Source: an uncultured Acidobacteriota bacterium
GTDB lineage: Bacteria; Acidobacteriota; Thermoanaerobaculia; Multivoradales; DATKCC01
Assembly (NCBI GenBank): GCA_963837945.1
Contig: CAWIQD010000024.1
Coordinates: 11,469 to 75,468, forward strand
DNA length: 64,000 nucleotides
Direction of reading: 5' to 3'
Shown: positions 26,364 to 61,674 of the stretch, piece by piece
How the letters are laid out: each line of letters starts with the position of its first letter
Position numbering within the stretch: position 1 is the stretch's first letter
Position numbers and translations under genes: made by a program
The notes under the pieces: generated by a model
What the model was told of the DNA's origin: nothing
Database searches by the model: none
What the model saw: the letters and a program-made list of their open reading frames with translations, nothing else

Positions 26364-27476
26364 TCAAGCCCAGGTCACGATGTCGCGACCGCGGCCCGCC
26401 GAGATCACGCCGGTCGTCGCCGCCTCCGACGCGAGAGCCGCGATCACGCCTTGCGCGATCGGGGAGACCTCGCCCGCCGGCGGAAAGACCTCTGCCTCCC
26501 GTTCGAGCTGCCGGGCACTCGAGCTCTGGCCGGGTGTCCTTTCGAACGCCGCGCTCCAGTCGTGATCTTCGCTTTGGGTCGCGCGATCGAGCGCCTCGGC
26601 TGTCACTGGCTTGATGAGACCGCAGTTCTTGGCGTGCCAGATCGCTCCACGAATGGAGAAGCCCCATCGCCGTGCGAGCTCCTCGACTTTGCGCTCCGGC
26701 TCTCGGATCCGACGACCGTCCCCGGCTCGGAACCAGTGCTGGACCTCGTCCCGGGGCGCCAGAAACGCCGGCGCGAAGGCCCGAGCCCGCTGTTCCGTCG
26801 CCGTGTGAAAGTTCCCGGTGCCCTCGGCCCAGGATAGCTGGGTGGTGAGATCGCGATCCCCCGAGTCATGAAGCAGGTGACACAGCTCGTGCGCGAGAAG
26901 AGCCCGGCGGCTCAGAACGGACCGAGACCTGGGGGAACGATCATTGAGCAAGATGACCGGGAGAGCTTCCCGTTCCCAAAGGCTCGCGGCATCCAAGCTC
27001 GCGGAGGAGAGCTCGGCTCGCGCAACGTGGACTCCGGCCTCCGTCAACAGCCGTTCGAGCTCCAGGATGGGGCCGGGCCGCGGAAACAGCGACCACCGGG
27101 CCGTTTGGCCCATCTGATAGCCCTGCTTCCAGGGTTCGACTCGCTCCCCAACCGGTCTCGGATCGCGTAGATCGGCGAGCCGGATCGGGCGGCCGACCTG
27201 ACTCGCCAGGAACCCGCCGATCCGGCTCAGCTCTGCGGCCAGGGACAGCGTGCGCAGGTCGTCCGACGTCAGCGCGACGCCCGCCGCGGCACGGAACCGT
27301 GCGACGCTCCGCCGGGGACTGCGATCTGCTCCGCTGGCCAGGGTGCCACTGTCAACGGCCAGCCCTCGGCAGATCGCCTCGAGCTTCCGACGGATGGATT
27401 GGCGATCCGGCCTCGATGTCCTGGAGGCGATCGGCCGTGACACCCGACCACTGGGCGACTCGCTCGATCGAGGCAC
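26364..27476 (-). CDS. ImmA/IrrE-family (M78) zinc metallopeptidase; probably the C-terminal part of an HTH-ImmA fusion interrupted by a frameshift
   Basis: HEXXH motif LAHELCHLLHD together with DUF955-like context. Confidence 0.6.
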   Translation of the reverse strand: MPRSSESPSGRVSRPIASRTSRPDRQSIRRKLEAICRGLAVDSGTLASGADRSPRRSVARFRAAAGVALTSDDLRTLSLAAELSRIGGFLASQVGRPIRLADLRDPRPVGERVEPWKQGYQMGQTARWSLFPRPGPILELERLLTEAGVHVARAELSSASLDAASLWEREALPVILLNDRSPRSRSVLSRRALLAHELCHLLHDSGDRDLTTQLSWAEGTGNFHTATEQRARAFAPAFLAPRDEVQHWFRAGDGRRIREPERKVEELARRWGFSIRGAIWHAKNCGLIKPVTAEALDRATQSEDHDWSAAFERTPGQSSSARQLEREAEVFPPAGEVSPIAQGVIAALASEAATTGVISAGRGRDIVTWA

Positions 27477-27591
27477 CGAAGTCTTCCCGCCGGTGGCGCA
27501 AGCGATCCGCCAAGGAGTCGATTCGGCTCTGGAGCTGAACAGTCATCCGGGTCGTCCTGCTGGAGGTGGCCAGCGGGCGAAGGCCACCCAA
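27352..27591 (-). CDS. XRE-family helix-turn-helix domain (probable N-terminus of the ImmA/IrrE protein in another frame)
   Basis: FGASIERVAQWSGVTADRLQDIEAG is an HTH_XRE motif. The ORF overlaps the ImmA frame by ~125 nt. Confidence 0.45.
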   Translation of the reverse strand: MGGLRPLATSSRTTRMTVQLQSRIDSLADRLRHRREDFGASIERVAQWSGVTADRLQDIEAGSPIHPSEARGDLPRAGR

Positions 27592-27639
27592 TGAGTCTAA
27601 CAGCTCGTGGTGAAATGTGCCGTCACCAACCCTCTCCTC

Positions 27640-28317
27640 CTACCCCGACGCCGTCTCGGCAATCAGCCCGTCCGGGCCCCGTCGGTGAGGCTCAGTGGGC
27701 GGCACCTCCTTGAAACGGCCCGCGCCGCTCGCGGGCTGAAGGGCCGCCCGCTCCACCGCCCGCGCGCGGGCGACGCTCTCGGCGATCACCTTGGCGTAGT
27801 AGCGGGGCATCGAGGCCTGGACCGCGGGGGCGATCGCGGCCGGGTCGGCGGTGGCTCCGGGCGCCAGGCCGTCGAAGGCGGCGATCCGGCCGTCCTCGAG
27901 CAGCGGGCGCACCCAGGTCAGGGGCTCGCTCGCCACGTCGGTGACCGTCGCGGCGCGGATCGCTCCGGCCGGGTCGAAGGCGACGCCGACGCCCAGCGGG
28001 CCGTGCTCGGACGCGGTCCAGAGGAACACGACCGAGCCCACCAGTGCGCCGCCCGCGTCGCGGCCGACGTAGAGCTGGAGCTCGTCGGAGTTCGGGCTCC
28101 AGCCGGTCGCCTCGCGGACCCGCCGGGCGACGTCCGCCGTCAAGTCCTTGGCGAAGAGATTGGTCGCGCCGGGGAGGACTTGCTGGACGAAGGCGCTCTT
28201 CTTGACCAGCTGCACGTTGGGAGTGATGTGGGCGAAAGCGGGCGCGGCCAGGAGGCTCGCGGCGGCGGCCAGGACCGGGAGGATCGACCGGCCGGCGAAG
28301 AAACCGGTGTTACGCAT
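27640..28317 (-). CDS. Secreted FMN-binding-domain-like protein
   Basis: Signal peptide. GAIRAATVTDV resembles the FMN_bind flavinylation region. Weak. Confidence 0.3.
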   Translation of the reverse strand: MRNTGFFAGRSILPVLAAAASLLAAPAFAHITPNVQLVKKSAFVQQVLPGATNLFAKDLTADVARRVREATGWSPNSDELQLYVGRDAGGALVGSVVFLWTASEHGPLGVGVAFDPAGAIRAATVTDVASEPLTWVRPLLEDGRIAAFDGLAPGATADPAAIAPAVQASMPRYYAKVIAESVARARAVERAALQPASGAGRFKEVPPTEPHRRGPDGLIAETASG

Positions 28318-28909
28318 GGGAGGGCTCCTTGGGGGATCGCTGAAACCAGCACTGCGTCAGGGTGAGAACGAGGACGACGAGGTAGACCAGGCCCATCGCC
28401 AGGCCGCCGGCGACCGCGAGCGTCGCCCAGGCGACGCCCCACGCGGGCGCGAGGTGGGCGCCCCAGAGGCCGACGAAGTCCGCCGCCGGCGCCGCGAAGG
28501 CGAGGAGGACCAGAGCCGAGCGCACCCGCGAGCCGAGCTCGAGCCCCATCGCGATCGCCGCCAGGGCGAGGGCGCAGAGGGCGTAGGCCGGCACGTGGAC
28601 GTGGGTGTCCTGGACCAGGAGCTCGCGCTCGACGTGGTGCTCCCCGCGGTCGAGGTCGGCGAGCGAGATCGGGTGCTCGCCGGCCGGCCCGGCCGCGGCC
28701 GTGCCGGACACCTGAGCGCCCCGGGGGGCGAGCTGCCGCGCGACGCCGGCCGGCGTGAACGAGGAGAAGTCCTTCACCTGCCAGGCGCCGAAGAGGTCCG
28801 CGGCGCCCAGCAGCAGGAGGAACAGGGTGACGGCGAGCCGCAGCTCGAACGGCCCGCGCGGTAGACCGCCCAGCGCGAGGGCGGCGGCGGCTCTCGGCCT
28901 CTCCGGCAT
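28310..28909 (-). CDS. Membrane protein (4 predicted TM helices, His-rich loop GEHHVE..HVHVPAY); start at MPERPRAAA
   Basis: Hydrophobic segments. Start/stop overlap with the upstream barrel gene. Confidence 0.3.
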   Translation of the reverse strand: MPERPRAAAALALGGLPRGPFELRLAVTLFLLLLGAADLFGAWQVKDFSSFTPAGVARQLAPRGAQVSGTAAAGPAGEHPISLADLDRGEHHVERELLVQDTHVHVPAYALCALALAAIAMGLELGSRVRSALVLLAFAAPAADFVGLWGAHLAPAWGVAWATLAVAGGLAMGLVYLVVLVLTLTQCWFQRSPKEPSHA

Positions 28910-30098
28910 CAGAAGAGGAACACCGTCTGGAGGGTGGCGGAGAGGAAGTCGCTCCGGCCGACGCCCGCCTCCCCGGAGCGGAAGACGTCCCGGTCCGAGC
29001 GGTCGTAGCGCAGGTCGAGGCGCACCTGGAGCTCGGGGATCTTGAGCGAGCTGTGGGCGAGGTAGCGGAAGACGCCGTAGAAGCCGCCGCCCACCAGGTA
29101 CTGCGGCGAGACGGTGAGCGAGCGCAGCGTCTGCGCCGTGCCGGTGCGGGCGCCGTCCTGGTCGTCGAGATAATCGGCCCGCACCGTGCCGGCCCAGGGG
29201 CCGCCGAAGCGGTGGTGGACGAAGAGGGTCTGGGCGAGCCAGCGGGCCGTTCCGCCGTCCTCGGCGAGACCCTGCTCGCGGCCGGCGACCGACTCGCCGC
29301 CCCAGACCCAGCTCCGGACCGGCTGGAACAGAAGGGTCCCGACGACGGTCGTGCGGTCGTGACGGGTGTCGTCGGGCTGCTCGGGGCCGTCGATCACGCC
29401 GAGGCCGACGTGGGCGGCGAGCGACGGGCTCCAGAGGCCGTAGAGGGCGAAGGTCTTGGCGTGGTTGTCGTCGCTGTCGAGGTCCCAGCCGTTGGCGACG
29501 ATCGCCCACCCCTCGAGCTCGGGCGAGAAGGCCTGGTGGAGCTGGAGACCGGTGAACTTCACGGGCCGCGCGAAGCCGAAGGTGAAGGACTCGGTCGCCT
29601 GGAGGTTCAAAGGCGCGTCGTCGCGCTCGATGGCGAGCGGCGAGTCGAGCTTGCCGAAGGAGACGTCGAGCCCCGAGACGGCGGCGGGCCGCCAGGTGAG
29701 GATCAGGTTGTCGATCTCGGTCTCGGTGCCGCCCTCGTCGCCCGCCCGTCCTCCTCGAGGAAGGGCGACGGCGCCTCGCGGGCGGTGGTGAGCTGGCCGA
29801 AGACGGTGAAGCGGTCGGTGATCGCCTTGTAGGCGGCGAGCGCCAGGACGCCGGCGGCGAAGCTGTTGTCGTGGGTGTCGCGCTCGTAGGAGAGATCGGC
29901 GACGCCGAAGCCGTTCAGCTGGAGCCGGTGGCTCGAGTCCGAGCCGAAGCCTCCGGCGGCCCGGCCTTCGTCGATCGACTGGGCATTGATCGGGATCTCT
30001 CCCGAGTCCTGCTGGGCGCCGGCCGCGGCCGGCAGGGCGAGCGCGAAGAGAACGCAACCGCTCGCCAGCGCGGCACGGCGCCGGATAGGGTGATGCAT
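28909..30098 (-). CDS. Outer-membrane beta-barrel (porin-like) protein with a signal peptide; apparent frameshift near 29740
   Basis: N-terminus MHHPIRRRAALASGCVLFALALPAAAGA in one frame. The C-terminal barrel ending ...LQTVFLF is in the adjacent frame. The junction lies at a GGGCGGGCG run. Confidence 0.35.
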
Positions 30099-30171
30099 GG
30101 CAACCTCCCGGGTTGTCGTCGGAGCGTGGGACGCTCCGAGCTGTCGAAGATCTGTGCGACGAAACGGGAGG

Positions 30172-30516
30172 TCAGGCGCGCGGCGGCGGGACCGCCGGCT
30201 CTCGGCAGGGGGCCGGTCCGGCGACCAGACGAAGGGGAGTCACCGGCTCCGCCACCACCGGTGCGGCGGTCCAGGCGAGGCTCGGGAGGACCGCCGGGGG
30301 CGCCGCCACCGATCCCAAGGGGAGCTGGGGCGGCGGGCAGTCGCTCAGGTGCGGAGCGCCCATGGCGCGCGCCCGGGCGCAGCGCAGGGCGCAGGCGGTG
30401 TCCATGCCGCCCATCCGGCAGCACGGCGCGAGGCGGAAGGTCGCGGGGGCGACGGCCACGCTCGCCAGGACGGGAAGCAGCAGGCTCGCGACGAGGAGGA
30501 GGGAAGCGAACCGCAT
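30172..30516 (-). CDS. Possible small secreted Cys-rich protein (114 aa)
   Basis: Convincing signal peptide MRFASLLLVASLLLPVLASVAVA followed by a CC...C..C pattern. Weak ribosome-binding site. Could be spurious in this high-GC background. Confidence 0.2.
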   Translation of the reverse strand: MRFASLLLVASLLLPVLASVAVAPATFRLAPCCRMGGMDTACALRCARARAMGAPHLSDCPPPQLPLGSVAAPPAVLPSLAWTAAPVVAEPVTPLRLVAGPAPCREPAVPPPRA

Positions 30517-30603
30517 CGGTCGAAGGATATCAGGGGCCGCCGGGAGGGTCCCGCGGCCACCCGATGAGTCCCGGCGGGCCCGGGAGCGGTTCAGGGCCCG
30601 TCC

Positions 30604-31407
30604 TCACTCCCCCGGGTCGGGGACGAGGAGGCGCTCGACCGAGCGGGCGTGGCCGGTCGACTCGTCGACGTCGACCACGGCGGCGGCCAGGCGGACGTCG
30701 TGCTTGGCCACCTGGAAGGGCGCCGGGGTGCCGGTCAAGAAGCGGTGGAGCACCTTGTCCGGGCGCATGCCGATGATCGACTCGTACGGGCCGGTCATGC
30801 CGACGTCGGTGACCAGGGCGGTGCCGCCGGGCAGCACGCGCTCGTCGGCGGTGGGCACGTGGGTATGGGTGCCGAAGACCGCCGAGACCCGGCCGTCGAG
30901 GTAGAAGGCGATCGCCTGCTTCTCGCTGGTCGCCTCGGCGTGGAAGTCGACGATCACGACACGCGGGGCCGGCTGGCGCGCGGCGAGGTCCGCGAGGATC
31001 CGGTCGGCGGTGCGGAAGGGGTCGTCGAGCGGGTCCATGAACACCCGCCCCTGGAGGTTGATGACGGCCACCGGCACGCCGGCCGGGGTCTCGCCGACGT
31101 GGACGCCGACGCCGGGGTTGCCCGCCGGGTAGTTCGCGGGGCGCAGCAGGGCGCGGCCCGAGCGGCGCGCGAGCAGGTCGCCGACCTCCTTCTTGTCCCA
31201 GATGTGGTTGCCCGAGCTGTAGCAGTCGATCGGTAGCTCCTCGAGCTCGGCGAGCACGCCGGCGGTGACCCCGAAGCCGCCGGCGGCGTTCTCGACGTTG
31301 ACGATCACGTAGTCCGCGCGGTGGCGATCGATCAGGCCGTCGAGCAGGCGGGCGAGGACGCGCCGGCCCGGCTTGCCGATGACGTCGCCGACGAAGAGGA
31401 CGTTCAT
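30604..31407 (-). CDS. ymdB: YmdB-like 2',3'-cyclic-nucleotide metallophosphoesterase (TIGR00282 family)
   Basis: MNVLFVGDVIGKPGR...NVENAAGGFG...GNHIWDKKE. Confidence 0.8.
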   Translation of the reverse strand: MNVLFVGDVIGKPGRRVLARLLDGLIDRHRADYVIVNVENAAGGFGVTAGVLAELEELPIDCYSSGNHIWDKKEVGDLLARRSGRALLRPANYPAGNPGVGVHVGETPAGVPVAVINLQGRVFMDPLDDPFRTADRILADLAARQPAPRVVIVDFHAEATSEKQAIAFYLDGRVSAVFGTHTHVPTADERVLPGGTALVTDVGMTGPYESIIGMRPDKVLHRFLTGTPAPFQVAKHDVRLAAAVVDVDESTGHARSVERLLVPDPGE

Positions 31408-31715
31408 CGGAGGGGTTTCCTCCGCCTCAGGCTGTCAGAGCTGTCGCGCTGCAACCTGGGCTGCACCCGCCTCGCGCAGAGGCGCAGAGGCGCAGAGGCG
31501 CGGTTCCGTCGGGAAGGTCATGGACGAGTCGATGGATACCATGCGGGATCCGAGGTGCACCGAAGATCAGGAGCAGGCATGTGTCGCTTCACCTCGTGGC
31601 CTCGTGTCGTGTGCTCGATTGCGATGACCGTTCCTCCTCTGCATCTCTGCGTCTCCGCGCCTCTGCGCGAGCAGCTCGTCGCTCGAGCCGTGCAAGATGT
31701 GCGGCACGGAAAGGG

Positions 31716-33278
31716 CTACCTCGCATACTCGATCGACCGGGTCTCGCGGATCACGTTGACCTTGATCTGGCCCGGGTAGGTGAGCTCGGACTCGATCTTC
31801 TTCGCCACGTCCTTCGACAGCATGATCGCCTCCTCGTCCGAGATCCGGCCGCTGTCGACGATGATCCGGATCTCCCGGCCGGCCTGGATCGCGAACGTCT
31901 TCTGCACGCCCTTGAAGCCGGCGGCGATCTCCTCGAGCTTCTCGAGCCGCTTGACGTAGGTCTCGAGCACCTCCCGGCGCGCCCCGGGGCGGGCGGCCGA
32001 CAGCGCGTCGGCGGCGGTGACCAGGATCGCCTCGACGGTCTCCGGGTCGTAGTCGCCGTGGTGGCAGGCCATCGCGTGGACCACCTCGTCGGTCTCGCCG
32101 TAGCGCCGGAGCAGGTCCATGCCGATCTCGAGGTGGGTGCCGTCGACCTCCCGGTCGACCGCCTTGCCGACGTCGTGGAACAGCCCGGCGCGGCGCGCGA
32201 CCTGGACGTTCGCCTTGAGCTCGCCCGCCATGATGCCGGCGAGGAAGGCGACCTCCTTCGAGTGGTGGAGCACGTTCTGCCCGTACGACGTCCGGAAGCG
32301 CAGGCGGCCCATGAGCTTGACCAGCTCGGGATGGACCTCGGGGATGTTGAGCTCGAGCATCGCCGACTCGCCCTCCTCGACGATCAGCTCCTCGAACTCC
32401 GCCTTGACCTTCTCCACCACCTCCTCGATCCGGGCCGGGTGGATCCGGCCGTCGGCGATCAGGCGCTCGAGCGCCACCCGCGCGATCTCGCGGCGGAAGG
32501 GGTCGAAGCCGGACAGGATGACCGCCTCGGGGGTGTCGTCGACGATCAGGTCGATGCCGGTGGCGGCCTCGAGCGCCCGGATGTTGCGCCCCTCGCGGCC
32601 GATGATGCGGCCCTTCATCTCGTCGGACGGCAGGACCACGACCGAGACGGTCGTCTCCGAGACGTAGTCCGAGGCGGAACGCTGCACCGCCATGCCGATG
32701 ATGCGCTGGGCGTGGCGCTGCGCCTGCTCGCGCGCCTCGTCCTCGATCCGCTTGACCGCGTGGGCGGCGTCCATCCGAGCCTCGTTCTCCATGACCCGGA
32801 TGAGCTCGTCCTTGGCCTGCTGGGCGGTGAGCCCCGCGATCTGCTCGAGCTTGCCCCGTTCCTCGGCGAGCAGCGAGTCGATCTCCTGCTGCCGGCGCGC
32901 CGAGAGGCGGTCGCGCTCCTGAACCTCGCGCTCGCGCGTCTGGGCCTCCCGCTCCCGCGTGTCGAGCTGGTCGAGCCGCTTGTCGAGGGTGTCTTCCTTC
33001 TGGGTGAGCCGGCGCTCGAGCGCCTCGAGCTCGTCGCGCCGCTTGCGCGACGCCCTCTCGAACTCGCTGCGCGCCTGGAGCAGCTTCTCCTTGGCGACGA
33101 TCTCCGCCTCGCGCAGCCTCGAGTCGCTCGAGCGCTCCGCCTCCTCGAGGATCTTCGCGGCCTGGCGGCGCGCACGAGCGTTCACGCGCTTCGCCTGCCG
33201 GCGGAGCACGAGCCACCAGAGCAACGGAATCGCGACCACCAGGGCGATCGCGATCCCCATCAGTACGGTGCTATCCAA
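31716..33278 (-). CDS. rny: Ribonuclease Y (N-terminal TM helix, KH domain, HD domain)
   Basis: Coiled-coil region, KH motif [15 protein letters not shown] and HD motif VLHHSKEVA...HDVGK. Start is TTG at 33278 or ATG at ~33260. Confidence 0.9.
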
Positions 33279-33279
33279 C

Positions 33280-33588
33280 GTGCCACCCCCTCGTCCTGCC
33301 GGGATGGGGGTGCGGGTGGTCCGGAGCTTCCTCCGTCACGTGGAGGGATAAATGAGCTGCATCCCCCGCGCAGCCGTGTGGACTGCCGCGCCTAGAACCT
33401 TAAGCGCCAAGTGGGTGTCCGCGCCACCGGCCATCAGCGTCCCCGTTCGAGCGGGGCTGGCACAGTCCGGCGGGTGAAGACTCCCTAGTTGTATATGTTG
33501 GTTCTACCATGGGTTGGCCCATCACGAACCACGCAGGGGATGCAAACTCTTCGACCTTCGTCATATCTCTAGGACGGCCACCGGTGGA
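33280..33588 (-). ncRNA. Candidate non-coding RNA region between zapA and rny (possibly 6S/SsrS-like by synteny)
   Basis: A ~310-nt intergenic region with locally reduced GC (...CTAGTTGTATATGTTGGTTCTACCATGG...). 6S RNA commonly lies immediately downstream of zapA. No structure verified. Confidence 0.2.
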
Positions 33589-33882
33589 TCAACCTCGAGC
33601 TGCCTCGGTCAATTCCCCGGCGAGCGCCGCCACCTTCTCCTGGATCTCGACCCGTTCCCCTTCCGACAAGCGCTTGGTCTGGAACAGTTCGTCCGCCAAG
33701 TTGAGAGCCGCCAGGATCGCGATCTTGGCCGTGTCCACCGTCGAGACCTTCTCGGAGATCTCACGCATCTTCCGATCGACGACGGCCGCCAGCTCCTGGA
33801 GGTACTCCTGATCGTCGCTCCCGCGTACAGGATAGACCGAGCCGAAGATCTCGATGTCCGTCGTCTGAGGCTCGTGCGCCAT
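33589..33882 (-). CDS. zapA: Cell division protein ZapA
   Basis: MAHEPQTTDIEIFGSVYPVRG...AKIAILAALNLADEL is the ZapA fold signature. Start is at the internal Met 33882. Confidence 0.75.
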   Translation of the reverse strand: MAHEPQTTDIEIFGSVYPVRGSDDQEYLQELAAVVDRKMREISEKVSTVDTAKIAILAALNLADELFQTKRLSEGERVEIQEKVAALAGELTEAARG

Positions 33883-34063
33883 ACGCCGAGAGTCCTTCCC
33901 CGCCCGCCAAGTGTCGAGCTGACAGGGACTTGTCCGATAGGCACTATAGCACAGGCGGGGGCTCCCCGAAGAGGCCTCCGGGCGAGGGCGGAGCGGGCTG
34001 TGGCGGCCGCGCGGCGCCCGGCGGCCCGGGACCGGAGAGGTCACCGGGCGCCTCCCGCCACGG

Positions 34064-36213
34064 CTACGACCCCGAGACGACGAAGGGGATCGAGGCTTTC
34101 GCCGACTGGCCCTGGATGCTCGCCACCAGGGTGTACTCGCCGGCCGCCAGGCCGTTCGGCTGGAGCTTCAGGACGAGCTGGGTCTCGTCCGCGGTCGCCG
34201 CCGGGGTCCGTCCGACGAAGGAGATCGTCGGTCCCTTCACCACCTGGCCGTCGGCGCCCCGGAACTCGGTCTCGAGCGGGATCGAGCCGTCGCCCAGGTT
34301 GTAGCCGACGAGGACGAACTGGGCCTCGCCGTTCGGGGTGACCACCGGCCTGGCGGCGGGCATGAAGGGTTTGCCGTCGACGACGAACGGGAAGGGGCGC
34401 TTGGCCCGCTCCTCGCTCCCCGCCGCCTCCTGGACCTTGAGCCACTTGTCGCTCGGCTCGGGGAAGAGCGGCATCGCGAGCATCGGCGCGCCGGCGCCGA
34501 ACTCGGGAACGGTCAGGGGCATCGAGCGGGTGCTCGTGCGTCCGGTCTGGGCGTCGCGCACCAGGACCCGGAGCTGGTACTGGCCGGCCGGCACGTCGAG
34601 GTCGCCGAAGAACTTGATGCCGCTTTCGGCGATCGCCGGCCGTACCTTGGTCAGGTCGAGGCCGATGTTCTGCGACAGGAAGTCCGCCACGGTCCCGTCC
34701 TGGGCGATGGCGTAGGCGTAGAGCTCCAGGAACAGCTTGTCGCCCTTGGTCTGGGCGAGCACCTTCGGGCCGTCGATCTCGACGATCACCGGCACGTAGC
34801 CGCGGCCGGCCTCGGCGTGGAAGGGGGCCGCCAGCACCGAGGTCTGGAGCGCGCCCGCGTGGTCGCCCGAGAGGATCTCGTCCGCCGCCTCGAAGCGCTT
34901 TTCGAGCGGGCTGCGCTGGTCGAACGGCTTGGGAGCGTAGAAGCCCGGCCGGTAGACCACGCGGGTGCCGCGCGGCGCGTGCTTGAGCTCGACGCGCAGC
35001 TTGTGGAAGTCGCCGTCGAGCTTCAAGTCTTCGGGCTGGAAGGAGAGCACGTAGGTGACCGAGGTGCGCTGGAGCATCTCGCCCATCGCCGCGCCCAGGT
35101 CGTTGAAGTTGCGGTACATCTCGCCGCCGGTCTGGTTGGCCATCATGAACAGGCTGTCCTGGCCGCTGGCCTGGCCTGGGCGTCGCGCCCGGCGCGCAGG
35201 CCGCCGATGTCCACCGCTTCGATCGTGCAGTCGGAGCGCCGGAACTCCTCGAGCATCTTCTCGACCGCGCTCAGGGTGCCGGTCGAGCCGTAGCGCTCCT
35301 CGGAGTCGACCCGCCAGGTCTCCCCGGCGTTGACCTGGGCCGCGATCTCCATCTGGCGCTTGGCGTCCTGGCTGCCGGTGACGACCGAGGCGTCGAACCC
35401 CTCGGAGAGGTAGACGACGTACTTGCGCCCCTCGGCCTCGTGGAGGACCTTCGCCAGGTCCTCGAACGCCGTGGTCAGGGCCGCGACCCGGCCCTGCGCC
35501 TCGCCCCGGTCGGCCCGGTTGAAGCCGATCGAGAGATCCTGGATGTTGGCGGCGAACTCGGCGTCCCCGGAGACTCCGCCCTTCCCCTGGATGCCGCCGC
35601 TCTGGGCCCCCGGGCCGCCGTGGGTGAGCTCGGGGTCGTAGACCAGGGCGAGCGGGTCGGCAGCGGCCTTGCGGTACTGCGGCAGGCCCAGGGTCTGGAT
35701 CGCCGCTTCGATCTGCTGGCGATCGCTGGTGAAGCCGAGGACGAGCTGGAGCGAGCGCTGGCTCGAGTAGGTGGCGACCGCCACCAGGTCCGACGGATGG
35801 AGGCGGGTGCTCACCAGGTGCTCGGCCGCCTCCCGCGCCTTGGTCACGGCCGTCGGGTCCGAGTAGGTGAAGTCGAAGAGCATCAGGAAGTGGCGCCGCG
35901 CCGAGAGCGGGACCTGGTCGAGCGGCAGGCTCTTGTCCGGTCCGTACTCCTTGAGGTCGACCATGTCGAAGCCGGTGATCTTCTGCTGCTTGCGCCCGTC
36001 GTAGAGCTCGAAGTCGCCGGCGGTCAGCCCGCGGACCGGCTCGCCGTCGTTGATCACCTGCACCGGCACCTCGACGGTGGTCACCTCGACGGTCTCACCG
36101 AACTGCTGGTCCTGCTTGGACTTGCCCCGGTCCTTCTGGGCGAGCAGCGGCGCCGACAGGACCGCTGCGACGACCAGGAAGAGGGCAAGGGACTGCTCGA
36201 GGCTGCGGGTCAT
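34064..36213 (-). CDS. VWA-domain protein (TIGR03436-like, 'VWFA-related acidobacterial domain'), split by a 1-nt frameshift at ~35143-35146 into 356-aa and 360-aa ORFs
   Basis: Collinear with the 741-aa paralog next door. The junction ...DAQARPA / QDSLFMMANQTGGE sits at a GCGG(G)CCAGG run. Confidence 0.55.
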
Positions 36214-36248
36214 GACGGCTCTCCGAATCTCGTTTTGGCGGACCGGTC

Positions 36249-51910: not shown

Positions 51911-53600
51911 ATGAGCCGATCGACGTACGCCGCCTCGCTCTTCCTCGCCGCCCTCCTGGCCATGACGGGCCTCTCCCGGGCGCAGCAGCCGCCGGCGCAA
52001 CCGTCTCCGGCTCCCGCTCCGACTGCCGCGAACGGCTCCGCGCGGGACCCGAAGGCGATCCTCGACCAGGCCGTCGCCGAGGTCGCGGCGGGCCACCTGA
52101 AGGAGGCCGTGGCACTCCTCGAGCCCCTTCGCGACCGGCCCGACACCCCGGTATCGGTGCTCGCCACCTTGGGCGCGCTCTACCTCCAGGTCAACCGGGC
52201 CGGCGACGCCTTCACGATCCTCGAGCCCATGGCCAAGGAGAAGAACGCCAACGCCGGGGTGCTCTACAACGCCGGCAAGGCCGCGGCGTTCGTCGGCAAG
52301 ATCCTCGAAGCCGAATCCTTCTACGAGCGCTCGGTCGCTCTCGAGCCGAACACGCCCGCCTCTCGGGAAGCTCGGTCTGCTCCGCGGTCAGGAGAACCGG
52401 TTCCGCCAGGCCCTCGTGCTTCTGCTGCCCTGGGCCCGGAGCCACCCGGACGACACCGAGGCGCGCCTGGCCGCGGCCTTCGCGGCGATCCGCCTCGAGC
52501 GGCCGCGAGACGCCGAGGAGCTCCTCTCGGGCCTGCCGCAGACCGATTCGCGCGTCCGCCTCGCCCAGGGCAACCTCCTGCTGCTCGAGAACGATGCCGA
52601 CGGAGCGATCACCGCTCTCCGGCCGCTGGTCGAGGGCTCGGAGGCCCAGGGGTCGAACGCTCTCGCGGACGACGCTCGCCGTCTCCTGGCCGATGCCTAC
52701 CTCGGGGCCGGCAAGCCCGAGGACGCCGTCGCCACGTTGAAAGGCCACCTGGGAGGACCTCCGTCCCACCTGACGATGGCGCGCGCCCAGTACCAGGCGG
52801 GCGATCACGAGGGGGCGATCGAGACGCTCACCCCGTTCGCCGAGCTGATCCTCCAGCACTCTCCCGACGAAGCCGACCCCCGGTGGCCGATGGCGGCCGA
52901 GGCCGCTCTGGACTACGGCCGCTGGCTGCTGGCCGCCGGCCGGGCCGGGGCCGCCGTGCCCTACTTCCGCGTGGTCACCCAGGTACGGCCCGGCGACCAG
53001 GACGCCTGGCAGGGCCTCGGGCAGGCGCTCACGGCGACCGGGGAGCGCGACGCCGGACAGAAGGCGCTCGCGAAGTCCCAGGAGCTCGCGAAGCAGGGGG
53101 GCGACGCCTCCCGGCAGGTCCCCGAGCGGGTCGCGGACCCCACCGGCGCCGAGGTCGAGCGGGCGCGCGAGCTGCTCGGCGAGGGCAAGGCCCGGGACGC
53201 GCTGCAGCTCCTCCACTCGGAGATCGTCCTCGCGCCCAGGGACGTCCGGCCCCGCCTGCTGGCCTCGAGAACCCTGCTGCTGCTGGGGCGCGCCCAAGAG
53301 GCTCTCCAGGCGGCCCAGCAGGCACTCGACCTGGAGCCGGCCAATCCGGACGCCCTCTACCAGCGGGGCACCGTCGAGATGTCCCTGAAGGACCTGGACG
53401 CCGCCGAGGCCGACCTGCGGCAAGCCCTGAAGCTCGCGCCCGACCACCTGCCGGCGATGGACGACCTGGCGGTGCTGCTCATGGTCGAGGGCAAGCGGGA
53501 CGAGGCCCGGGAGCTGCTCCGGAAGGTCCTGGAGATCCGGCCCGACGACTCCCAGGCCAAGGCGAACCTGGCCAAGCTCGAAGCGAAGAACCCGTCGTAG
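51911..53600 (+). CDS. Secreted TPR-repeat protein; apparent frameshift near 52350-52380 (ORFs 51911.. and 52416..53600)
   Basis: Both halves are TPR-like in adjacent frames. The first frame has no stop until 53617. Confidence 0.5.
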
Positions 53601-55202: not shown

Positions 55203-55219
55203 TACCATCCCGAGCCGTG

Positions 55220-57238
55220 ATGCGCGCCGGCCGTCGTCTCCTCGCTCGCACCTTTCCCGCCTCGCTCCTGCTCGTCGCCGCCCTCGCCGCACTCGGGTGC
55301 GGCGGCCGGCGGGACCCCCTGGAGGCGGTACCCGAGGGGCGGCCGGTCGTCCTCGTCTCCATCGACACCTTGCGCTCCGACCATCTGCCGGCGTACGGCT
55401 ACGATCGGGTGGAGACCCCGGCGATCGATGCGCTCCGCGCCGACGGCATCCTCTACGAGCGGGCCTACAGCGAGGTGCCCCTCACCCTGCCCTCCCACGC
55501 TTCGATCCTCACCGGCCTCCTGCCGCCCGCCCACGGCGTGCGCGACAACGCCGGCTATCGCCTGAGCGAAGCGGTGGGGCCGACGCTCGCCCAGCGCCTC
55601 CACGACGCCGGCTACGCGACGGGCGCCGCGGTGTCGTCCTACGTGCTGCGTCACGAGACCGGCCTCGCTCGAGGGTTCGACCTCTACGACGACCACGTCG
55701 CGCCGGGGCACGAGAAGACGATCGGTGAGATCCAGCGGCCCGGGCCCGAGACGCTCCAGGCGGTGCTGCCCTGGCTGCGCTCGGCGGTCCACCGCCCGTT
55801 CTTCCTCTTCTTCCACATCTACGAGCCCCACACGCCGCGCGACCCGCCGGAGCGCTTCGCCGCCCGCTACGGCAAGACCTACGACGGCGAGGTGGCGGCG
55901 GCCGACGCGGTGGTCGGGCAGCTCGTCGACGAGCTCAAGGTCCTCGACCTCTACGACCGCTCGACGATCGTCCTGCTGGCGGATCACGGCGAGGGCCTGG
56001 GCGACCACGGCGAGGACGAGCACGGCGTGCTCCTCTACCGCGAGAGCCTGCAGGTGCCGCTGATCGTCAAGCTCCCCGGCTCGGCCGGCGCCGGGGCCTC
56101 GGTGGCCACGCCCGCCGAGCTCGTCGACGTGGCGCCGACGATCCTCGCTCTCGCCGGCGCCGAGGTGCCCGCCTCGCTCCCCGGCACCTCGCTCCTCGCG
56201 CTCGCCGAGGCGGCGCGGCGCTCGGCGGGCGACGGCGACCGAGCCGAGCCCCGGGCGCTCTACTCCGAGTCGTTCCACGCCCGGCTGCGCTTCGGCTGGA
56301 GCGGCCTGACCTCGGTCATCCGGGGCCGCTACCAGTACATCGAGGGGAGCGACCGGGAGCTCTACGACCTGGCCGCCGACCCGGGCGAGACGAAGAACGT
56401 GCTGCGCTCCGAGCGCCAGGTCTACGCCTCCCTGCGCGACGCCCTCCACGGCTTCGATTCCGAGCTCCAGCAGCCGTTCGAAGAGGACGCGGAGACACGT
56501 TCTGCCCTCGCCGCGCTCGGCTACCTGGGCGGCGTCGCCTCCGGCCCGGGCGAGGGACCGCGTGCCGACCCCAAGACCATGCTCCCGGCCCTCGACGGGC
56601 TGCGCACCGGGGTCGAGATGGTCTCGCGCGGCGACAACGAGCGCGCCGTGCCGTTGCTCCGCGAGGCGACCCGCCAGATTCCCCGCTCGATCGACGCCTG
56701 GCAGTTCCTGGGGCTGGCCCTCGACCGCCTGGGGCACGAAGAGGAGGCCCTGGCCGACTACCGGCGGGCGTTCGATCTCTCGAACGGCTCGCCGCTCCTC
56801 GCCAAGCCGCTCGCCCGGGTGTCGCTCCAGCTCGGGCACCTGGACGACGCGGTCCAGTTCCTGCGCCTGGCCGTCGACCAGGAGCCGGACGACATGGCGC
56901 TGCGCCTCCTCGAGGCCCGGACGCTCCTCGTCTCGGGCCACCCGCAGGACGCCCTCGAGGCCGCCGGCAAGGCGGTCGAGATGGCGCCCGGGTCGGCCGA
57001 CGCCCGCTACCTGCGCGGAGCCGCGGAGGTGGCTGCGGGCAAGCTCGCCGACGCGGAGCGCGACCTGCGCCAGGCGCTGGAGCTCGCTCCCGACCATCCG
57101 GCGGCGCTCAACGACCTGGCGGTGCTCCTGCTGGAGCAGGGCCGGCGCGACGAGGCCCGGAGCCTCCTCGAGCACCTGGTCCGGATCCAGCCGGGCAACC
57201 AGGCCGCGCGCCGGGACCTGGCCTATCTCGAGCGCTAG
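55220..57238 (+). CDS. Sulfatase-like hydrolase/transferase + TPR lipoprotein, paralog 3
   Basis: Lipobox LGCGG. VVLVSIDTLRSDHLPAYGY...EVPLTLPSHASILTG...LADHGEGLGDHGE. Confidence 0.6.
   Translation: MRAGRRLLARTFPASLLLVAALAALGCGGRRDPLEAVPEGRPVVLVSIDTLRSDHLPAYGYDRVETPAIDALRADGILYERAYSEVPLTLPSHASILTGLLPPAHGVRDNAGYRLSEAVGPTLAQRLHDAGYATGAAVSSYVLRHETGLARGFDLYDDHVAPGHEKTIGEIQRPGPETLQAVLPWLRSAVHRPFFLFFHIYEPHTPRDPPERFAARYGKTYDGEVAAADAVVGQLVDELKVLDLYDRSTIVLLADHGEGLGDHGEDEHGVLLYRESLQVPLIVKLPGSAGAGASVATPAELVDVAPTILALAGAEVPASLPGTSLLALAEAARRSAGDGDRAEPRALYSESFHARLRFGWSGLTSVIRGRYQYIEGSDRELYDLAADPGETKNVLRSERQVYASLRDALHGFDSELQQPFEEDAETRSALAALGYLGGVASGPGEGPRADPKTMLPALDGLRTGVEMVSRGDNERAVPLLREATRQIPRSIDAWQFLGLALDRLGHEEEALADYRRAFDLSNGSPLLAKPLARVSLQLGHLDDAVQFLRLAVDQEPDDMALRLLEARTLLVSGHPQDALEAAGKAVEMAPGSADARYLRGAAEVAAGKLADAERDLRQALELAPDHPAALNDLAVLLLEQGRRDEARSLLEHLVRIQPGNQAARRDLAYLER
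57002..57232 (+). repeat. Direct repeat copy A (231 bp, the 3' end of paralog 3)
   Basis: ~97% identical to 57770-58001. Confidence 0.85.
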
Positions 57239-57350
57239 AAGCCGACGAGGCCCAGCTCGTCCAGACTATCCTCGCATCCCCAAAGGCAAGCGTCGGTCCT
57301 CGTAGTTTCGCAGGGTAGCGTCCAAGGCGCTCAGGAAGCGCTGCTGCCCG

Positions 57351-57707
57351 TCAGTTGCACCCGATATCCACGTATTGGGTTTCGTTGTCCCCGAAGTAAT
57401 CTCCGTGCCTGATGTTTCCGCGAGAGGCAACCAGAAAGATTTTGTGGTGTCCTGCGGGCAACTGCTTGGAGGTCGTCTCGCCCCCGGAGAAGCCGTTGGC
57501 ACCATCGTCGAATGTCCAGGCGTAGGTTTCGACCTCACCAGTCGTACAGCTGGCGTCGAGAGCGCAGTACCCGCCGCACGTGCATGCCACATCGAAGCAG
57601 GCCGTGATGCCTCCACTTGCTTCTGCCGGCGACGGCGCGCTGGCTGACAGCACCAGAATCGAAAGGGAGGACAAGAGAACGAGAAGAACTGAGCGCTTCA
57701 TTGGCAT
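57351..57707 (-). CDS. Small secreted Cys-rich protein (118 aa) encoded in a low-GC insert
   Basis: Signal peptide MPMKRSVLLVLLSSLSILVLSASA. The mature part has 7 Cys (CFDVACTCGGYCALDASC...DIGC). Local GC ~55% versus ~70% elsewhere. Confidence 0.4.
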   Translation of the reverse strand: MPMKRSVLLVLLSSLSILVLSASAPSPAEASGGITACFDVACTCGGYCALDASCTTGEVETYAWTFDDGANGFSGGETTSKQLPAGHHKIFLVASRGNIRHGDYFGDNETQYVDIGCN

Positions 57708-57769
57708 TGTCTCCTAATGTAGTTAACTATGTCTTTCATTATACACGCACTCATGGGGGAAAAGTCAAG

Positions 57770-58001
57770 GCCCGCTACCTGCGCGGAGCCGCGGAGGTGG
57801 GTGCGGGCAAGCTCGCCGACGCGGAGCGCGACCTGCGCCAGGCGCTGGAGCTCGCTCCCAACCATCCGGCGGCGCTCAACGACCTGGCGGTGCTCCTGCT
57901 CGAGCAGGGCCGGCGCGACGAGGCCCGGAGCCTCCTCGAGCACCTGGTCCGGATCCAGCCGGGCAACCAGGCCGCCCGCCGGGACCTGGCCTATCTCGAG
58001 G
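57770..58001 (+). repeat. Direct repeat copy B (duplicated 3' end of the paralog 3 gene, not attached to a full gene)
   Basis: Encodes ...YLRGAAEVGAGKLADAERDLRQALELAPNHPAALNDLAVLLLEQGRRDEARSLLEHLVRIQPGNQAARRDLAYLEGH. Confidence 0.85.
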
Positions 58002-58028
58002 GCCACTGAGGCTGCGCACCGGGCCGGC

Positions 58029-59901
58029 CTACTTCGCCCGGTCCACCGGCGACTCCTCCCAGGGGCTCCGCACCGGCTTGCCCTGCTCGTAGAGCGTGAG
58101 CCACCGGTGGTTGCGCGCGATCACCTCGGGGCGCCCGCGCGGCTCGATCTCTCCGAGCACGCGACGCTGCCAGGCGACGGCTTCGGCGAATCGGCCCGCC
58201 TCGGCGTACGCCATCGCCACCGTCTCGGCGCGCTCCTCGTTCGGCTCGCGACGGAAGGCGTCCTCGGCGAGCCGCACCGCCTCGGCTCCGTCGCGGGCCG
58301 CCGGGTCGGGGGCGGTCGCCAGCAGCCGGCCGAGCAGATGGGAGAGGACCAGGTTGCCGGGCAGGGCGACGAGATCGCTCTCGAGCGCCTTGCGGGCGTC
58401 GACGTACTCGCCGCCCAGGATCAGGGCCATCGCCCGCCCGAAGCGGGTGTCGGCGTCCTCCGGCGCCAGCTCCACGACCCGGGAGAAGCTCCTGGGCCGC
58501 CGCGCGAAAGCGGCCCAGGCGGCCCAGGAGCTTCGCGAGCTCGAGGTGCGCGGCCCGGGAGTCGGGCAGGAGCTCGGTGGCCCGCCGGAAGTGCGCGGCC
58601 GCGCCCTGGGAGTCGCCCGTCTGATCGAGGGCGCGGGCGAGATCGAGCTCGGCCTTCCCGGTGAGCTCGACCTCGTCCGGCCGGAGCTGGCCGAGAAGCG
58701 CCTCGAGCTCCTGGGCGGCGCGCGGGAGCTCGGCCGCGCGAAGCAGAGCCTCGGCCCACCGCAAGTGGGCGGCGTGGTCGAGCGGATCGATCTCGACCGT
58801 CTTGCCGTAGTGCTCGGCCGCCTCCTGCCACCGGCCCTCCTCCGCCAGGGCGCTCGCCAGGTTGTACTGGGCGTTGCGGTAGGCGGGGTCGAGCTCGATC
58901 GCCTTCTCGAACCGCTCGACGGCCTCGTCCCTCCGGCCGGCCTGGATCAGTGCGGAGCCCAGGTTGTACTGGTTCACGGCGTCGTCCGGAGCGACCTCGA
59001 CCGCCTTGCGGTACTCGCGGAGGGCAATGTCCAGGAGCCCCTTTTGGAGCGCGTTGTTGCCCCGTTTCGCGTGGATCGCGGCCCCCTTGAGAAGGCCGCT
59101 GAGCTGATCCATACGGGGGTCGGAGAAGCGCGCGTCATGGCCGTGGGCGAGAGCCAGGTGCTCTTTCGCGCGGGCCAGATCGCCGGTGTCGCGGTACGCC
59201 ACGCCGAGCTGGTACTGGATGGCGTCGGCCGACGGCTGGAGCTCGAGCGCCCTCTCGAAGAGCGTGATCGCGTCCCCCGGCTGCTTCCGCCGCACGGCGA
59301 CCGTGCCGAGACCCTGGAGAGCCGCCGCCGATTTCGGCTGGAGCTCCAAGGCCGCCCGGTAGCTCTGCTCGGCTCCGTCGAGCTCGCCCCGCGCGAGCTG
59401 TACCTGGCCGAGGCGGATCAGGGTCGCCACGTCGGGCCCCAGGTCGCGCGCCCGGGCGAAGCTCGCTTCGGCCTCCTCCATGCGGCCTTGGCGCCGGTAG
59501 AGGAAGCCCAGGTAGTACGGCCACGAGGGGTCAGCGGGGGCCAGCCTCTCGGCGTCGGCGAGCGCCGGCTCGGCGGCGTCCGCCAGGTCGTAGAGCAGGT
59601 ACAGGCTCCCCATCCGCCCGTAGGCGGCCGCCAGCTCGGCGTCGGAAGCGTTCCCCGTAGCGACCCGTTCCGCGAGATCCTGGCGCTCGATCCGGAGCTG
59701 CTCCTGGTCCTCCGGCTCGAGGTTGCCGATCGGCGGCGCGGGCACCGGCTCGAGGCCCGGCCGCGGCGGGGCCAGCGGGGTGGCGGCCTCGCCGGCGGCA
59801 ACGCGCGGAGCCTCCGGGGCCTGGTCGCCGGCCACCGCCCGGGCCGCGGAGAGGGCGAAGACGAGGAACGGGACGAAGGCCGCGGCGCAAAGAGCCCTCA
59901 T
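58029..59901 (-). CDS. Secreted TPR-repeat protein; apparent frameshift near 58480-58520
   Basis: MRALCAAAFVPFLVFALSAARA signal. TPRs continue in the adjacent frame (58029..58475). Start overlaps the FG-GAP gene stop (ATGA). Confidence 0.5.
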
Positions 59902-61674
59902 GGCGCCGGCGCCCCGCCGCCCTCGTAGAGCGTCGCGTAGCGCCCGGCCTCGAGCCGCGTCCATTGCTCGCTCCGCCCGTCGGGCCAGTCCACCCGCAAC
60001 CCGGTGACGTCGGCGGCTCCACCCGCCTTGGGGCCCAGGCCGAAGAGCACCCGCGGATCGTTCGAGGAGCCGTAGCTGCCGCAGGTCCTCGCCTCGCGGT
60101 AGAGCGTGGGCGCGCCCTTCCGGTAGAGGACGGCGCGCGCGCCCAGCATGTCGCGCACGCCACCCCCGCCGCCGGCCGCTCCGACCAGGCGCAGGCCGAG
60201 CCAGGGCTCGTCCTGGGCGACCTGGTCGACGAGGAGGCGCGCGGGGCCGGCGCTGTTGGCGACCAGGAGGTCCGAGTCGCCATCCTCGTCCACGTCGCCC
60301 ATGGCGACGCCGCGGCTCACCTCCGAAAGCCGGAAGACCTTGCCGGCCTCGTCCGTGACCTCCTCGAAGCGGCCGCCACCCAGGTTGTGGTAGAGGCTGT
60401 TGGTCTGGTGGAGGGCGTAGGCGTCGCCGGCGCGCACCTCGTCCCAGAGGAGCGTCACCGCCCCGTTGGCGACGAAGAGGTCCTGGAGGCCGTCGCCGTC
60501 GTAGTCGACGAGCGCGGTGCCGAAGCCGGTGAAGCGCCAGGAGGGCGTGCCCAGACCGGTCTGCTGCGAGCGATCCTCGAAGATGGCGTGCCCGTCGTTC
60601 AGGTAGACCGTGTTGGTCTCGTGCGCGAGGTGGGTCATGAACAGGTCTTCGGTGCCGTTGCCGTCGAGGTCCCCGGTCACCACCCCCATGCTCGCCTCGG
60701 GCTGGCCCATGGCGTTGACCGAGCAACCGCCCAGCAGCGCGCCGTTCTGGAAGGTGCCGTCGTGCTGGTTGAGCCAGAGCTGGTTGGGCAGGCCGTCGTT
60801 GGCCACGTAGAGGTCCACCCAGCCGTCGCCGTCGAAGTCCGCCGCCGTGGCGCCGAGCGCCGGGCCGAACTCCGACGCGATCCCGGAGCTCGCGGTCACG
60901 TCCTCGAAGGTGCCGTCGCCCCGATTGTGAAACAGACGGTCGGGCTCCGGCTCGAAGGCCGATGGGCCACAGTAGTCGCGGGCGCCCGCGGGCGTGCTGC
61001 ACGGCTTGTCGGTGGCGGCGCGGAAGTCCACGTAGTTGCCCACGAAGAGGTCCAGCCGGCCGTCGCGGTCGTAGTCGAAGAAGACCGCCGGCACGCTCCA
61101 GCGGGGGTCGTCCGTACCGCTCCTCGCGGTCGCGTCCTCGAACGTGCCGTCGCCCCGGTTGTGGAGCATCTGGTTCGAGCCGCCGTAGTTGGTGACGTAG
61201 AGGTCCACCCAGCCGTCGCCGTCATAGTCGCCGGCGGCGACCCCCATGCCGTAGCCGGTGCCCAGGGCGCCGCTCCGGGAGGTGACGTCGGTGAAGTGGA
61301 CGACCTGGGTGCCGTCGGGCGCGAGCGTAGGTGTCGTTGCGGTACAGGCGGTCGCTCAGGGGCACCGGGTACTTCGGGGGGAACGTGGCGTCGGCCACCG
61401 TCTTGCCCTTGCCGAGCATCGTGCCCTGGACCATGTAGACGTCGAGGTCGCCGTCGCCGTCGTAGTCGACCAGCGCCGCCCCCTGGCCCATCATCTCGGC
61501 GAAGTCGAGCTCGCCGGACATGCCGTTGAAGTGCACGAAGTCGAGCCCCGTCTCGGCCGCCCGGTCGACGAACAGGTCGCCCGGCGGGGAGGGCGCGGCG
61601 GCCCCGAGCAGCGCGGCGGTGAGCGGCGCGAGCAGGAGCCGGCGAAGCGGCCGGAAGACGGGGGCGCGGCGCAT
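59898..61674 (-). CDS. FG-GAP repeat / ASPIC-UnbV (CRTAC1-like) secreted protein; apparent frameshift near 61300-61330
   Basis: Repeated DYDGDGWVDLYV, DYDRDGRLDLFV and DFDGDGWVDLYV motifs. The N-terminal signal peptide part is in the adjacent frame (61222..61674). Confidence 0.6.

What the first reader, a model, noticed from the sequence alone, without database searches (positions are those of the whole stretch)
27352..61330. Recurrent +/-1 frameshifts in conserved genes (at least seven in 64 kb)
Besides tamB, apparent single-nucleotide frame breaks occur in:
- the HTH-ImmA fusion (~27352-27476)
- the porin-like gene (~29740)
- the VWA gene (~35143; a missing G in GCGG(G)CCAGG)
- the TPR gene at ~52350-52420
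- the TPR gene at ~58480-58520
- the FG-GAP gene (~61300-61330)
Several of these junctions lie in short homopolymer or GC runs. That density argues for systematic indel errors, as in an unpolished long-read assembly, over genuine pseudogenes. All gene calls and any apparent 'small novel ORFs' in this window should be read with that in mind.
Basis: seen in the sequence. Interest (0 to 1): 0.5.

Follow-up and report, generated by a model that had tools for sequence, protein, structure and literature searches.

The report
Sequencing-error frameshifts, half at GAGCTC sites
At least eight otherwise healthy genes in this 64 kb stretch are each broken by a single extra or missing base, and the pattern points to errors in a long-read (Nanopore-type) assembly, not to real dead genes or recoding.

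Summary
All six listed frame breaks and the tamB break are real in the sequence. I found an eighth at 26061/26062, in the gene downstream of HTH-ImmA. Each is a single-base indel inside a gene that is one continuous ORF in homologues.

Five are one-base insertions. Each is an extra A directly 5' of GC, which reads as an extra T after GC on the other strand. Three are one-base deletions.

Four of the eight lie in the palindrome GAGCTC:
- Three read GA[A]GCTC.
- One reads G[-]GCTC.

Codon bias (GC3 about 0.95) is intact on both sides of the six breaks in high-GC3 genes, and no gene carries a second lesion.

The closest relatives are Nanopore-only Microflora Danica MAGs assembled with Flye and one round of Medaka.
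- They are intact at seven of the window's eight sites where comparable.
- They carry their own one-base breaks elsewhere in the same genes, again mostly GAGCT[T]C.
- One break (TPR gene, 58486) is shared with one such MAG. A third MAG and an independent Logan contig read an intact GAGCTC or CAGCTC there.

Best explanation: residual, context-specific consensus errors of a long-read assembly, possibly linked to GAGCTC methylation. Real pseudogenes, programmed frameshifting and phase variation are unlikely. The finding is an artefact of low biological interest, but a useful annotation caveat.

The parts
15011..19073 (-). tamB (AsmA/DUF748 N-terminus plus TamB C-terminal domain), broken by one extra base at about 17060-17063. 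The + strand reads GATCA[A]GCAG.
   Evidence: The repaired 1353-aa protein aligns ungapped to homologues of 1360-1400 aa.
25890..26359 (-). Gene of about 155 aa with no known family, downstream of HTH-ImmA. One base (A) is missing between 26062 and 26061. The minus strand reads GCGG-GCTCGG where GCG GAG CTC GG is needed.
   Evidence: The codon-position GC pattern switches frame at about 26075. Homologues L088 and L089 read ...ALTALAELGRxRVAHPFDLW... in one frame and in conserved gene order.
26364..27546 (-). HTH (XRE type) fused to an ImmA/IrrE M78 peptidase, broken by one extra base in minus-strand GGA[A]GCTCGAG. On the + strand this is GAGCTTC at 27381-27387.
   Evidence: The HTH_31 match lengthens after repair.
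28909..30098 (-). BBP2/OmpL-like beta-barrel porin. One G is missing from a GGG run at 29741-29747. The exact run cannot be fixed because the junction lies in a variable loop.
34064..36213 (-). VWFA-related protein of about 714 aa. One base is missing at 35176, where + strand TGGCCTGGG should read TGGCCCTGGG.
51911..53600 (+). TPR protein of about 562 aa, with one extra A in GA[A]GCTC at 52367-52373.
   Evidence: L001 and L087 both read GAGCTC in frame.
58029..59901 (-). TPR protein of about 623 aa, with one extra base in + strand GA[A]GCTC at 58485-58491. The same break occurs at the same site in the Nanopore MAG locus L001 (15760).
   Evidence: L086 reads GAGCTCTCCCGG and L087 reads CAGCTC, both in frame.
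59898..61674 (-). FG-GAP / ASPIC-UnbV protein of about 591 aa, with one extra base within 61318-61327. The + strand reads GCGCG[A]GCGTA.

Best explanation
The eight frame breaks are residual single-base consensus errors of a long-read assembly, almost certainly Nanopore. They are not features of the organism's DNA.

The errors depend on sequence context:
- The basecaller or polisher miscounts the A/T next to a GC core.
- The effect is strongest in the palindrome GAGCTC, which comes out as GAAGCTC, GAGCTTC or GGCTC.
- It occasionally drops a base from a short G/C run.

I infer, without being able to show it, that GAGCTC is methylated in this lineage and that the modified base disturbs the signal. 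GAG(5mC)TC is a known type II methyltransferase specificity.

The real genes are intact. tamB, the porin, the VWFA protein, two TPR proteins, the FG-GAP protein, HTH-ImmA and its neighbour are each one ORF.
For: **Shown:**
- Each lesion is exactly one base. One edit per gene restores a full-length ORF that aligns to homologues; where the exact base could be fixed, the alignment is ungapped at the junction.
- GC3 stays near 0.95 on both sides of the six breaks in high-GC3 genes. No gene carries a second lesion.
- Eight of about 43 genes are hit, including the conserved tamB.
- Four of eight breaks lie in GAGCTC. All five insertions are an extra A 5' of GC.
- The other 27 GAAGCTC/GAGCTTC sites cause no frame break. 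Those in high-GC3 genes mostly read xAAG-CTC or xAGC-TTC; the remainder checked sit in an unbroken ORF or outside genes.
- Sister loci from MFD MAGs are intact where the window is broken. They carry their own breaks elsewhere in the same genes:
  - L001 7975 and 18773, both GAGCT[T]C
  - L087 about 7347, G[A]GCG
  - L084 9969, a G homopolymer
  - L081 2024

- Those MAGs are Nanopore-only, built with Flye --meta --nano-hq and one Medaka round (PMC12313526).
- At the one shared break (58486 = L001 15760), L086 and L087 are in frame.

**Supporting the methylation link (inference):**
- GAGCTC is a documented m5C motif (PMC11954522).
- In a high-GC bacterium, strains methylating GRGCYC kept more than 100 errors in native Nanopore assemblies, against 2 in a strain without the motif (PMC11649196).
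Against: - No reads, coverage or provenance are available for the window.
- Five exact-protein look-ups did not find the source record (not applicable, 87).
- About 120 GAGCTC sites in the window are called normally, so the error affects only about 3% of sites. The extra determinant is unknown.
- Methylation of GAGCTC in this organism is untested.
- The 83 CRISPR repeats (about 3 kb, including a G5 run) show no indel variants. Errors are therefore sparse rather than rampant.
- I do not know the sequencing platform behind L086, L088 and L089.
Confidence: 0.88

Rival explanations
1. The indels are genuine recent mutations, so the organism really carries eight or more pseudogenes. This could reflect relaxed selection, or a mutational hotspot at GAGCTC linked to a restriction-modification system.
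For: The sequence as given contains the indels. Without reads this cannot be excluded. Half the events share one hexamer, which could in principle mark a biological hotspot.
Against: - About 19% of genes are broken, each by a single base, with no second lesion and undiminished codon bias.
- Conserved envelope genes such as tamB are hit.
- Three sister assemblies made with the same technology show the same lesion type at different positions in the same genes, and are intact at the window's positions.
- Under this reading the 58486 site would need the identical insertion to arise twice, or to persist across about 16% nucleotide divergence.
Confidence: 0.05
2. The break shared by the window and L001 in the TPR gene (58486; GAG CUU CUC CCG preceded by AGGAG) is a conserved programmed +1 ribosomal frameshift.
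For: - The identical frame break occurs at the identical site in two genomes that are about 84% identical.
- It sits in a fully conserved 20-nt stretch.
- An SD-like AGGAG lies directly upstream of a CUU codon, which superficially resembles the prfB site. That resemblance rests on my own knowledge.
Against: - Orthologs L086 (GAGCTCTCCCGG) and L087, and about 30 more distant homologues of 550-690 aa, are single in-frame ORFs.
- The lesion is the same GAGCT[T]C signature seen at unshared sites in unrelated genes.
- There is no stop or rare codon in the 0 frame to stall the ribosome.
- Repair gives an ungapped TPR alignment.
Confidence: 0.02
3. The breaks are phase-variable contingency loci, switched by slipped-strand mispairing in simple repeats. 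An example would be the (GCCAG)3-like repeat beside the VWA junction.
For: A GCCAG x3 tract lies next to the VWA break. Removing one unit would also restore the frame.
Against: - Homologue spacing (RDAQxxxxGQDSLF) and ortholog DNA fit a single missing C at 35176, not a change of one repeat unit.
- The runs at all sites are 3 nt or shorter, far below typical contingency tracts.
- The five insertions are not in repeats.
Confidence: 0.02

Closest known systems
Residual indel errors in Nanopore-only (R10.4.1, Flye + Medaka) metagenome-assembled genomes, including errors associated with methylation motifs
   Same: - The lesions are single-base indels that split ORFs.
- The sequence context recurs: a palindromic motif, with the A/T next to the GC core miscounted, plus short G/C runs.
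- The same signature appears in sister MAGs made by that pipeline.
- Precedent exists for a GRGCYC/GAGCTC 5mC motif coinciding with excess errors in native Nanopore assemblies (PMC11649196).
   Different: - The classical expectation is deletions in long homopolymers. Here five of eight are insertions, and the main context is GAGCTC.
- The window's provenance and the methylation state are not known.
Genuine bacterial pseudogenes
   Same: Conserved genes are interrupted by frameshifts.
   Different: There is no accumulation of further lesions and no loss of codon bias. The density is far above what is usual for a free-living bacterium, and the lesions are motif-specific.
prfB-type programmed +1 frameshifting
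   Same: At 58486 a CUU codon follows an SD-like AGGAG, and the break is shared by two genomes.
   Different: The break is not conserved in other orthologs, the 0 frame has no stop codon at the site, and the same lesion occurs in unrelated genes.

Membership tests
Long-read (Nanopore) consensus indel artefact | Lesions are isolated single-base indels, and one edit restores a full-length ORF matching homologues | tested here: met
   All eight sites.
Long-read (Nanopore) consensus indel artefact | The sequence context recurs in a systematic way | tested here: met
   Four of eight sites lie in GAGCTC. All five insertions are [A]GC. Two deletions lie in G/C runs. The same contexts occur in L001 and L087.
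Long-read (Nanopore) consensus indel artefact | Independent assemblies of close relatives are intact at the same sites | tested here: met
   L001, L081, L083, L084, L086, L087, L088 and L089 are intact at the sites they cover. The only exception is 58486, which L001 shares while L086 and L087 are intact. For the porin the evidence is protein-level only.
Long-read (Nanopore) consensus indel artefact | The sequence derives from a long-read-only assembly, and reads disagree with or are strand-biased at the sites | not testable with these tools
   The source record was not found. Only the relatives are documented as Nanopore-only.
Methylation-motif-induced Nanopore error | The motif is methylated in this organism | not testable with these tools
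   This needs raw signal or modification calls. The literature shows only that GAGCTC m5C methyltransferases exist.
Genuine pseudogene | Further degradation: extra stops or indels, and decaying codon bias downstream of the lesion | tested here: not met
   For the six breaks in high-GC3 genes, GC3 stays at 0.9 or above on both sides. For all eight, there is a single lesion per gene.
Programmed ribosomal frameshift | The shift site is conserved across orthologs | tested here: not met
   Seven of eight sites are unique to the window. 58486 is shared only with L001. L086, L087 and more distant homologues are in frame.
Phase-variable contingency locus | The indel lies in a long homopolymer or tandem repeat tract | tested here: not met
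   Runs are 3 nt or shorter. The GCCAG x3 tract beside VWA is not where the indel lies.

The most novel reading that the evidence does not exclude
The GAGCTC-centred indels, or at least the one shared by two genomes at 58486, could be real. They might reflect a hypermutable or recoding site tied to a GAGCTC restriction-modification system, or a conserved +1 programmed frameshift in a TPR gene of Thermoanaerobaculia-like Acidobacteriota.
Probability: 0.03. Interest if true: 0.6.

Novelty: not a real feature. Interest (0 to 1): 0.12.

Why it matters
The biological importance is small, because the genes are almost certainly intact. The practical importance is real.

- About one gene in five in this window would be mis-annotated as split, truncated or a pseudogene.
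- Out-of-frame tails, such as the R/S/T/P-rich end of ORF 25871-26359, could pass for novel small proteins.
- The GAGCTC-linked signature recurs in public Nanopore-only MAGs of the same lineage (MFD01721.bin.1.239 and the MAG holding contig_47839). A simple motif-aware check, or methylation-aware re-polishing, could repair many gene calls in that catalogue.

Tried and rejected
- **Rule that misled me.** I first treated a stop codon at the frame-switch point as an ordinary gene boundary. That wrongly cleared the VWA site, which has a misleading ATGA overlap. Protein sequence and homologues overturned it.
- **Source look-ups.** Exact-protein look-ups to find the source record returned nothing.
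- **L082.** The Logan contig L082 is 100% identical to the MFD locus L081 over 9.4 kb. That stretch holds no breaks, so it gave no handle on platform-specific errors.
- **CRISPR repeats as an internal control.** 34 of 34 and 47 of 49 repeats are identical, with no indel variants. With about 0.3 errors expected in 3 kb, the test has too little power.
- **Gene downstream of ImmA.** Pfam, PHROGs and NCBIfam found no family, whether the gene was corrected or not. The metagenome scan supplied the homologues instead.
- **(GCCAG)n explanation for VWA.** Rejected on homologue spacing and ortholog DNA.
- **Other GAAGCTC/GAGCTTC sites.** I checked 5533, 24926, 26963, 36274 and 58528. All are natural and in frame.
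- **Unverified frame switches in relatives.** Switches coincide with GAAGCTC at L001 2765 and L081 18453, but no third genome was available to confirm them.
Full report
**Setting.** The window has about 70% G+C, and third codon positions are 0.95-1.0 G+C inside most genes. That makes the reading frame directly visible. A seven-state Viterbi segmentation on codon-position G+C, combined with a stop-codon map, gives the coding frame along the window. Most same-strand frame changes coincide with a stop codon and a start codon, and are ordinary gene boundaries. Five do not: about 17.06k, 29.74k, 52.36k, 58.49k and 61.33k.

Gene content includes TamB, an Omp85 protein with five POTRA domains, sulfatase-TPR fusions, CarboxypepD_reg receptors and ASPIC/UnbV FG-GAP proteins. 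With the names attached to homologues, this places the window in Thermoanaerobaculia-like Acidobacteriota.

**Each break is a single gene split by one base.**

- **tamB.** The N-terminal piece carries AsmA/DUF748 and the C-terminal piece carries the TamB domain. After deleting one base from minus-strand CTGCT[T]GATC, the 1353-aa product matches more than 20 proteins of 1360-1400 aa over 96-100% of its length. The alignment is ungapped through the junction.
- **HTH-ImmA.** The XRE-type helix-turn-helix is cut in the middle. Removing one A from GGA[A]GCTCGAG joins it to the M78 peptidase part and lengthens the HTH_31 match.
- **Porin.** Adding one G to a GGG run joins a signal-peptide-bearing N-terminus to the BBP2 barrel. 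In the library of cluster representatives, the best hits (401 and 410 aa) align in one stretch across the junction.
- **VWA.** I first dismissed this site because the upstream frame ends in an ATGA stop/start overlap. The VWA domain nevertheless runs on in the other frame. More than 100 homologues of 705-730 aa cover the joined protein. Ortholog DNA from L081 and L083 places the missing base at 35176, TGGCC(C)TGGG. That gives RDAQGQASGQDSLF, against RDAQGQAGGQDSLF in the closest ortholog.
- **TPR52, FG-GAP and TPR58.** These were resolved against the syntenic locus L001 and later L086 and L087.
- **An eighth break outside the list.** The ORF downstream of ImmA ends in an R/S/T/P-rich tail typical of out-of-frame GC-rich DNA. 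The codon-position pattern changes frame at about 26075. Two metagenome homologues in conserved gene order read ...ALTALAELGRxRVAHPFDLW... in one frame. The window reads GCGG-GCTCGG where GCG GAG CTC GG is required.

Applying the eight single-base edits yields uninterrupted ORFs carrying all the junction peptides.

**No further window-specific breaks were found in the regions I could compare.** A relative-frame scan tracks cumulative gap offset modulo 3 along blastn alignments. Against five related loci it finds no other window-specific coding shifts in 11.9-24.3 kb or 32-64 kb.

**What the lesions look like.**

Five are insertions. In one orientation, each is an extra A immediately 5' of GC:
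- GATCA[A]GCAG
- GGA[A]GCTCG
- GGGA[A]GCTCG
- GAGA[A]GCTCC
- GCGCG[A]GCGTA

Three of these lie inside the palindrome GAGCTC.

Three are deletions: one A lost from a would-be GAGCTC, and one base lost from each of two 3-nt G/C runs.

The window holds 120 GAGCTC, 15 GAAGCTC, 14 GAGCTTC and one GAAGCTTC. In high-GC3 genes, most GAAGCTC/GAGCTTC sites that cause no break read xAAG-CTC or xAGC-TTC. Five others (5533, 24926, 26963, 36274, 58528) were checked and are in an unbroken ORF. Three further sites (5841, 33324, 38504) lie outside the called genes. Three of eight indels falling in about 0.3% of the sequence cannot be chance.

**The decisive comparison is with the relatives.**

- The closest relative is MAG MFD01721.bin.1.239 (loci L001, L081, L085). 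A second MAG holds contig_47839 (loci L084, L087). Both are 80-86% identical to the window and syntenic with it.
- Microflora Danica MAGs are Nanopore-only. They were assembled with Flye --meta --nano-hq and polished with one Medaka round (PMC12313526).
- These loci are intact at the window's break points.
- They carry their own one-base breaks in the same genes:
  - L001 7975 and 18773, both GAGCT[T]C
  - L087 about 7347, G[A]GCG
  - L084 9969, a G homopolymer in tamB
  - L081 2024, beside GAGCT

- Three assemblies each have different single-base breaks of the same type in the same healthy genes. That is what a technology-specific consensus error looks like, and not what inherited pseudogenes look like.

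**The shared break.** At 58486 the window and L001 have the identical GAGCT[T]CTCCCGGG. This is the only candidate for something biological, namely a conserved +1 recoding site. The evidence is against it:
- The Logan contig L086 reads GAGCTCTCCCGG in frame, and L087 reads CAGCTC in frame.
- About 30 more distant homologues are single ORFs.
- The repaired protein aligns without a gap.

The simplest reading is that this particular context is especially error-prone and failed in both assemblies.

**Mechanism (inferred).** GAGCTC is a known m5C methyltransferase specificity, found in environmental MAGs (PMC11954522). In a high-GC bacterium, strains that methylate GRGCYC, a motif that includes GAGCTC, kept more than 100 errors in native Nanopore assemblies. 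A strain without that motif kept 2 (PMC11649196). In all four GAGCTC events here, the miscounted base is the T directly 3' of the putatively methylated C, which is the A on the other strand. This fits a disturbance of the signal by a modified base, but it is not shown. A motif-specific model bias unrelated to methylation would look the same.

**Limits.**
- The window's origin is unknown, and four exact-protein look-ups found nothing.
- No reads are available.
- I do not know the platform behind L086, L088 and L089.
- The exact base cannot be fixed at the porin site (variable loop) or within about 10 nt at the FG-GAP site.
- For 24.3-32 kb I had relatives only for single genes.

**Verdict.** The feature is an assembly artefact with a recognisable GAGCTC/[A]GC signature. 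Gene calls and 'novel small ORFs' in this window, and in sister Nanopore MAGs, should be read after frameshift-aware correction.

Noticed in passing
window 24-2551 and 5983-9584: Two large CRISPR arrays.
- The first has 34 identical 37-nt repeats, GTGGAAATCGGCGAGGGACCCTTCGGGGGATTGCGAC.
- The second has 49 repeats, GTGGAAACCGGCGAGGAACCTTTCGAGGGATTGCGAC, with the last two degenerate.
- Spacers are about 27-44 nt.
- They explain the low-GC3 'non-coding' blocks.
- A similar array lies at L085 19542-22480, next to RadC.
- No cas genes were identified in the window.
   Followed up: partly
window 3052-4116 (+): IS1-like transposase as a single 354-aa ORF, with an InsA zinc ribbon and a weak DDE_Tnp_IS1 match. 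It lies between the two CRISPR arrays, next to a RadC/UPF0758 gene (4506-about 5196, minus strand).
   Followed up: no
window 33359-33542 (-): 6S RNA (Rfam RF00013, 79 bits, full length), upstream of the RNase Y gene.
   Followed up: no
window 25326-27546 (-); L088, L089: A conserved three-gene module:
- HTH-ImmA/IrrE peptidase, with a weak match to the spr1629-family repressor/antitoxin
- a protein of about 155-180 aa with no known family
- a DinB-like protein

The same order appears in two unrelated metagenome contigs. This may be a toxin-antitoxin or defence-like unit. It sits in a stretch of lower GC3, so it may be foreign DNA.
   Followed up: partly
window about 25030-25260: An inverted repeat of about 30 nt (…GATTCACGAATCCCTTATCTTTCG… / …AAAGACAAGGGATTTGTGAATCAGACCACTAG…) flanks a G+C-rich stretch of about 200 nt, just upstream of a vapB-like/vapC (PIN) pair at 24327-24970. 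Its nature is unknown.
   Followed up: no
L001 2765, 7975, 15760, 18773; L081 2024, 18453; L084 about 9412 and 9969; L087 about 7347: The public Nanopore-only MAG loci related to the window carry their own single-base frame breaks, mostly at GAGCT[T]C/GA[A]GCTC. Published gene calls there are split: tamB as 248 + 1137 aa in L084, and sulfatase-TPR as 487 + 250 aa in L087. The breaks at L001 2765 and L081 18453 were not verified with a third genome.
   Followed up: partly
window 11898-19073 (-): tamB is followed immediately by a 1037-aa Omp85 protein with five POTRA domains (BamA/TamA-like). The tamB reading frame happens to stay open for 7.2 kb, so a naive ORF list shows a spurious 2391-aa ORF (11898..19073) running across both genes.
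   Followed up: partly
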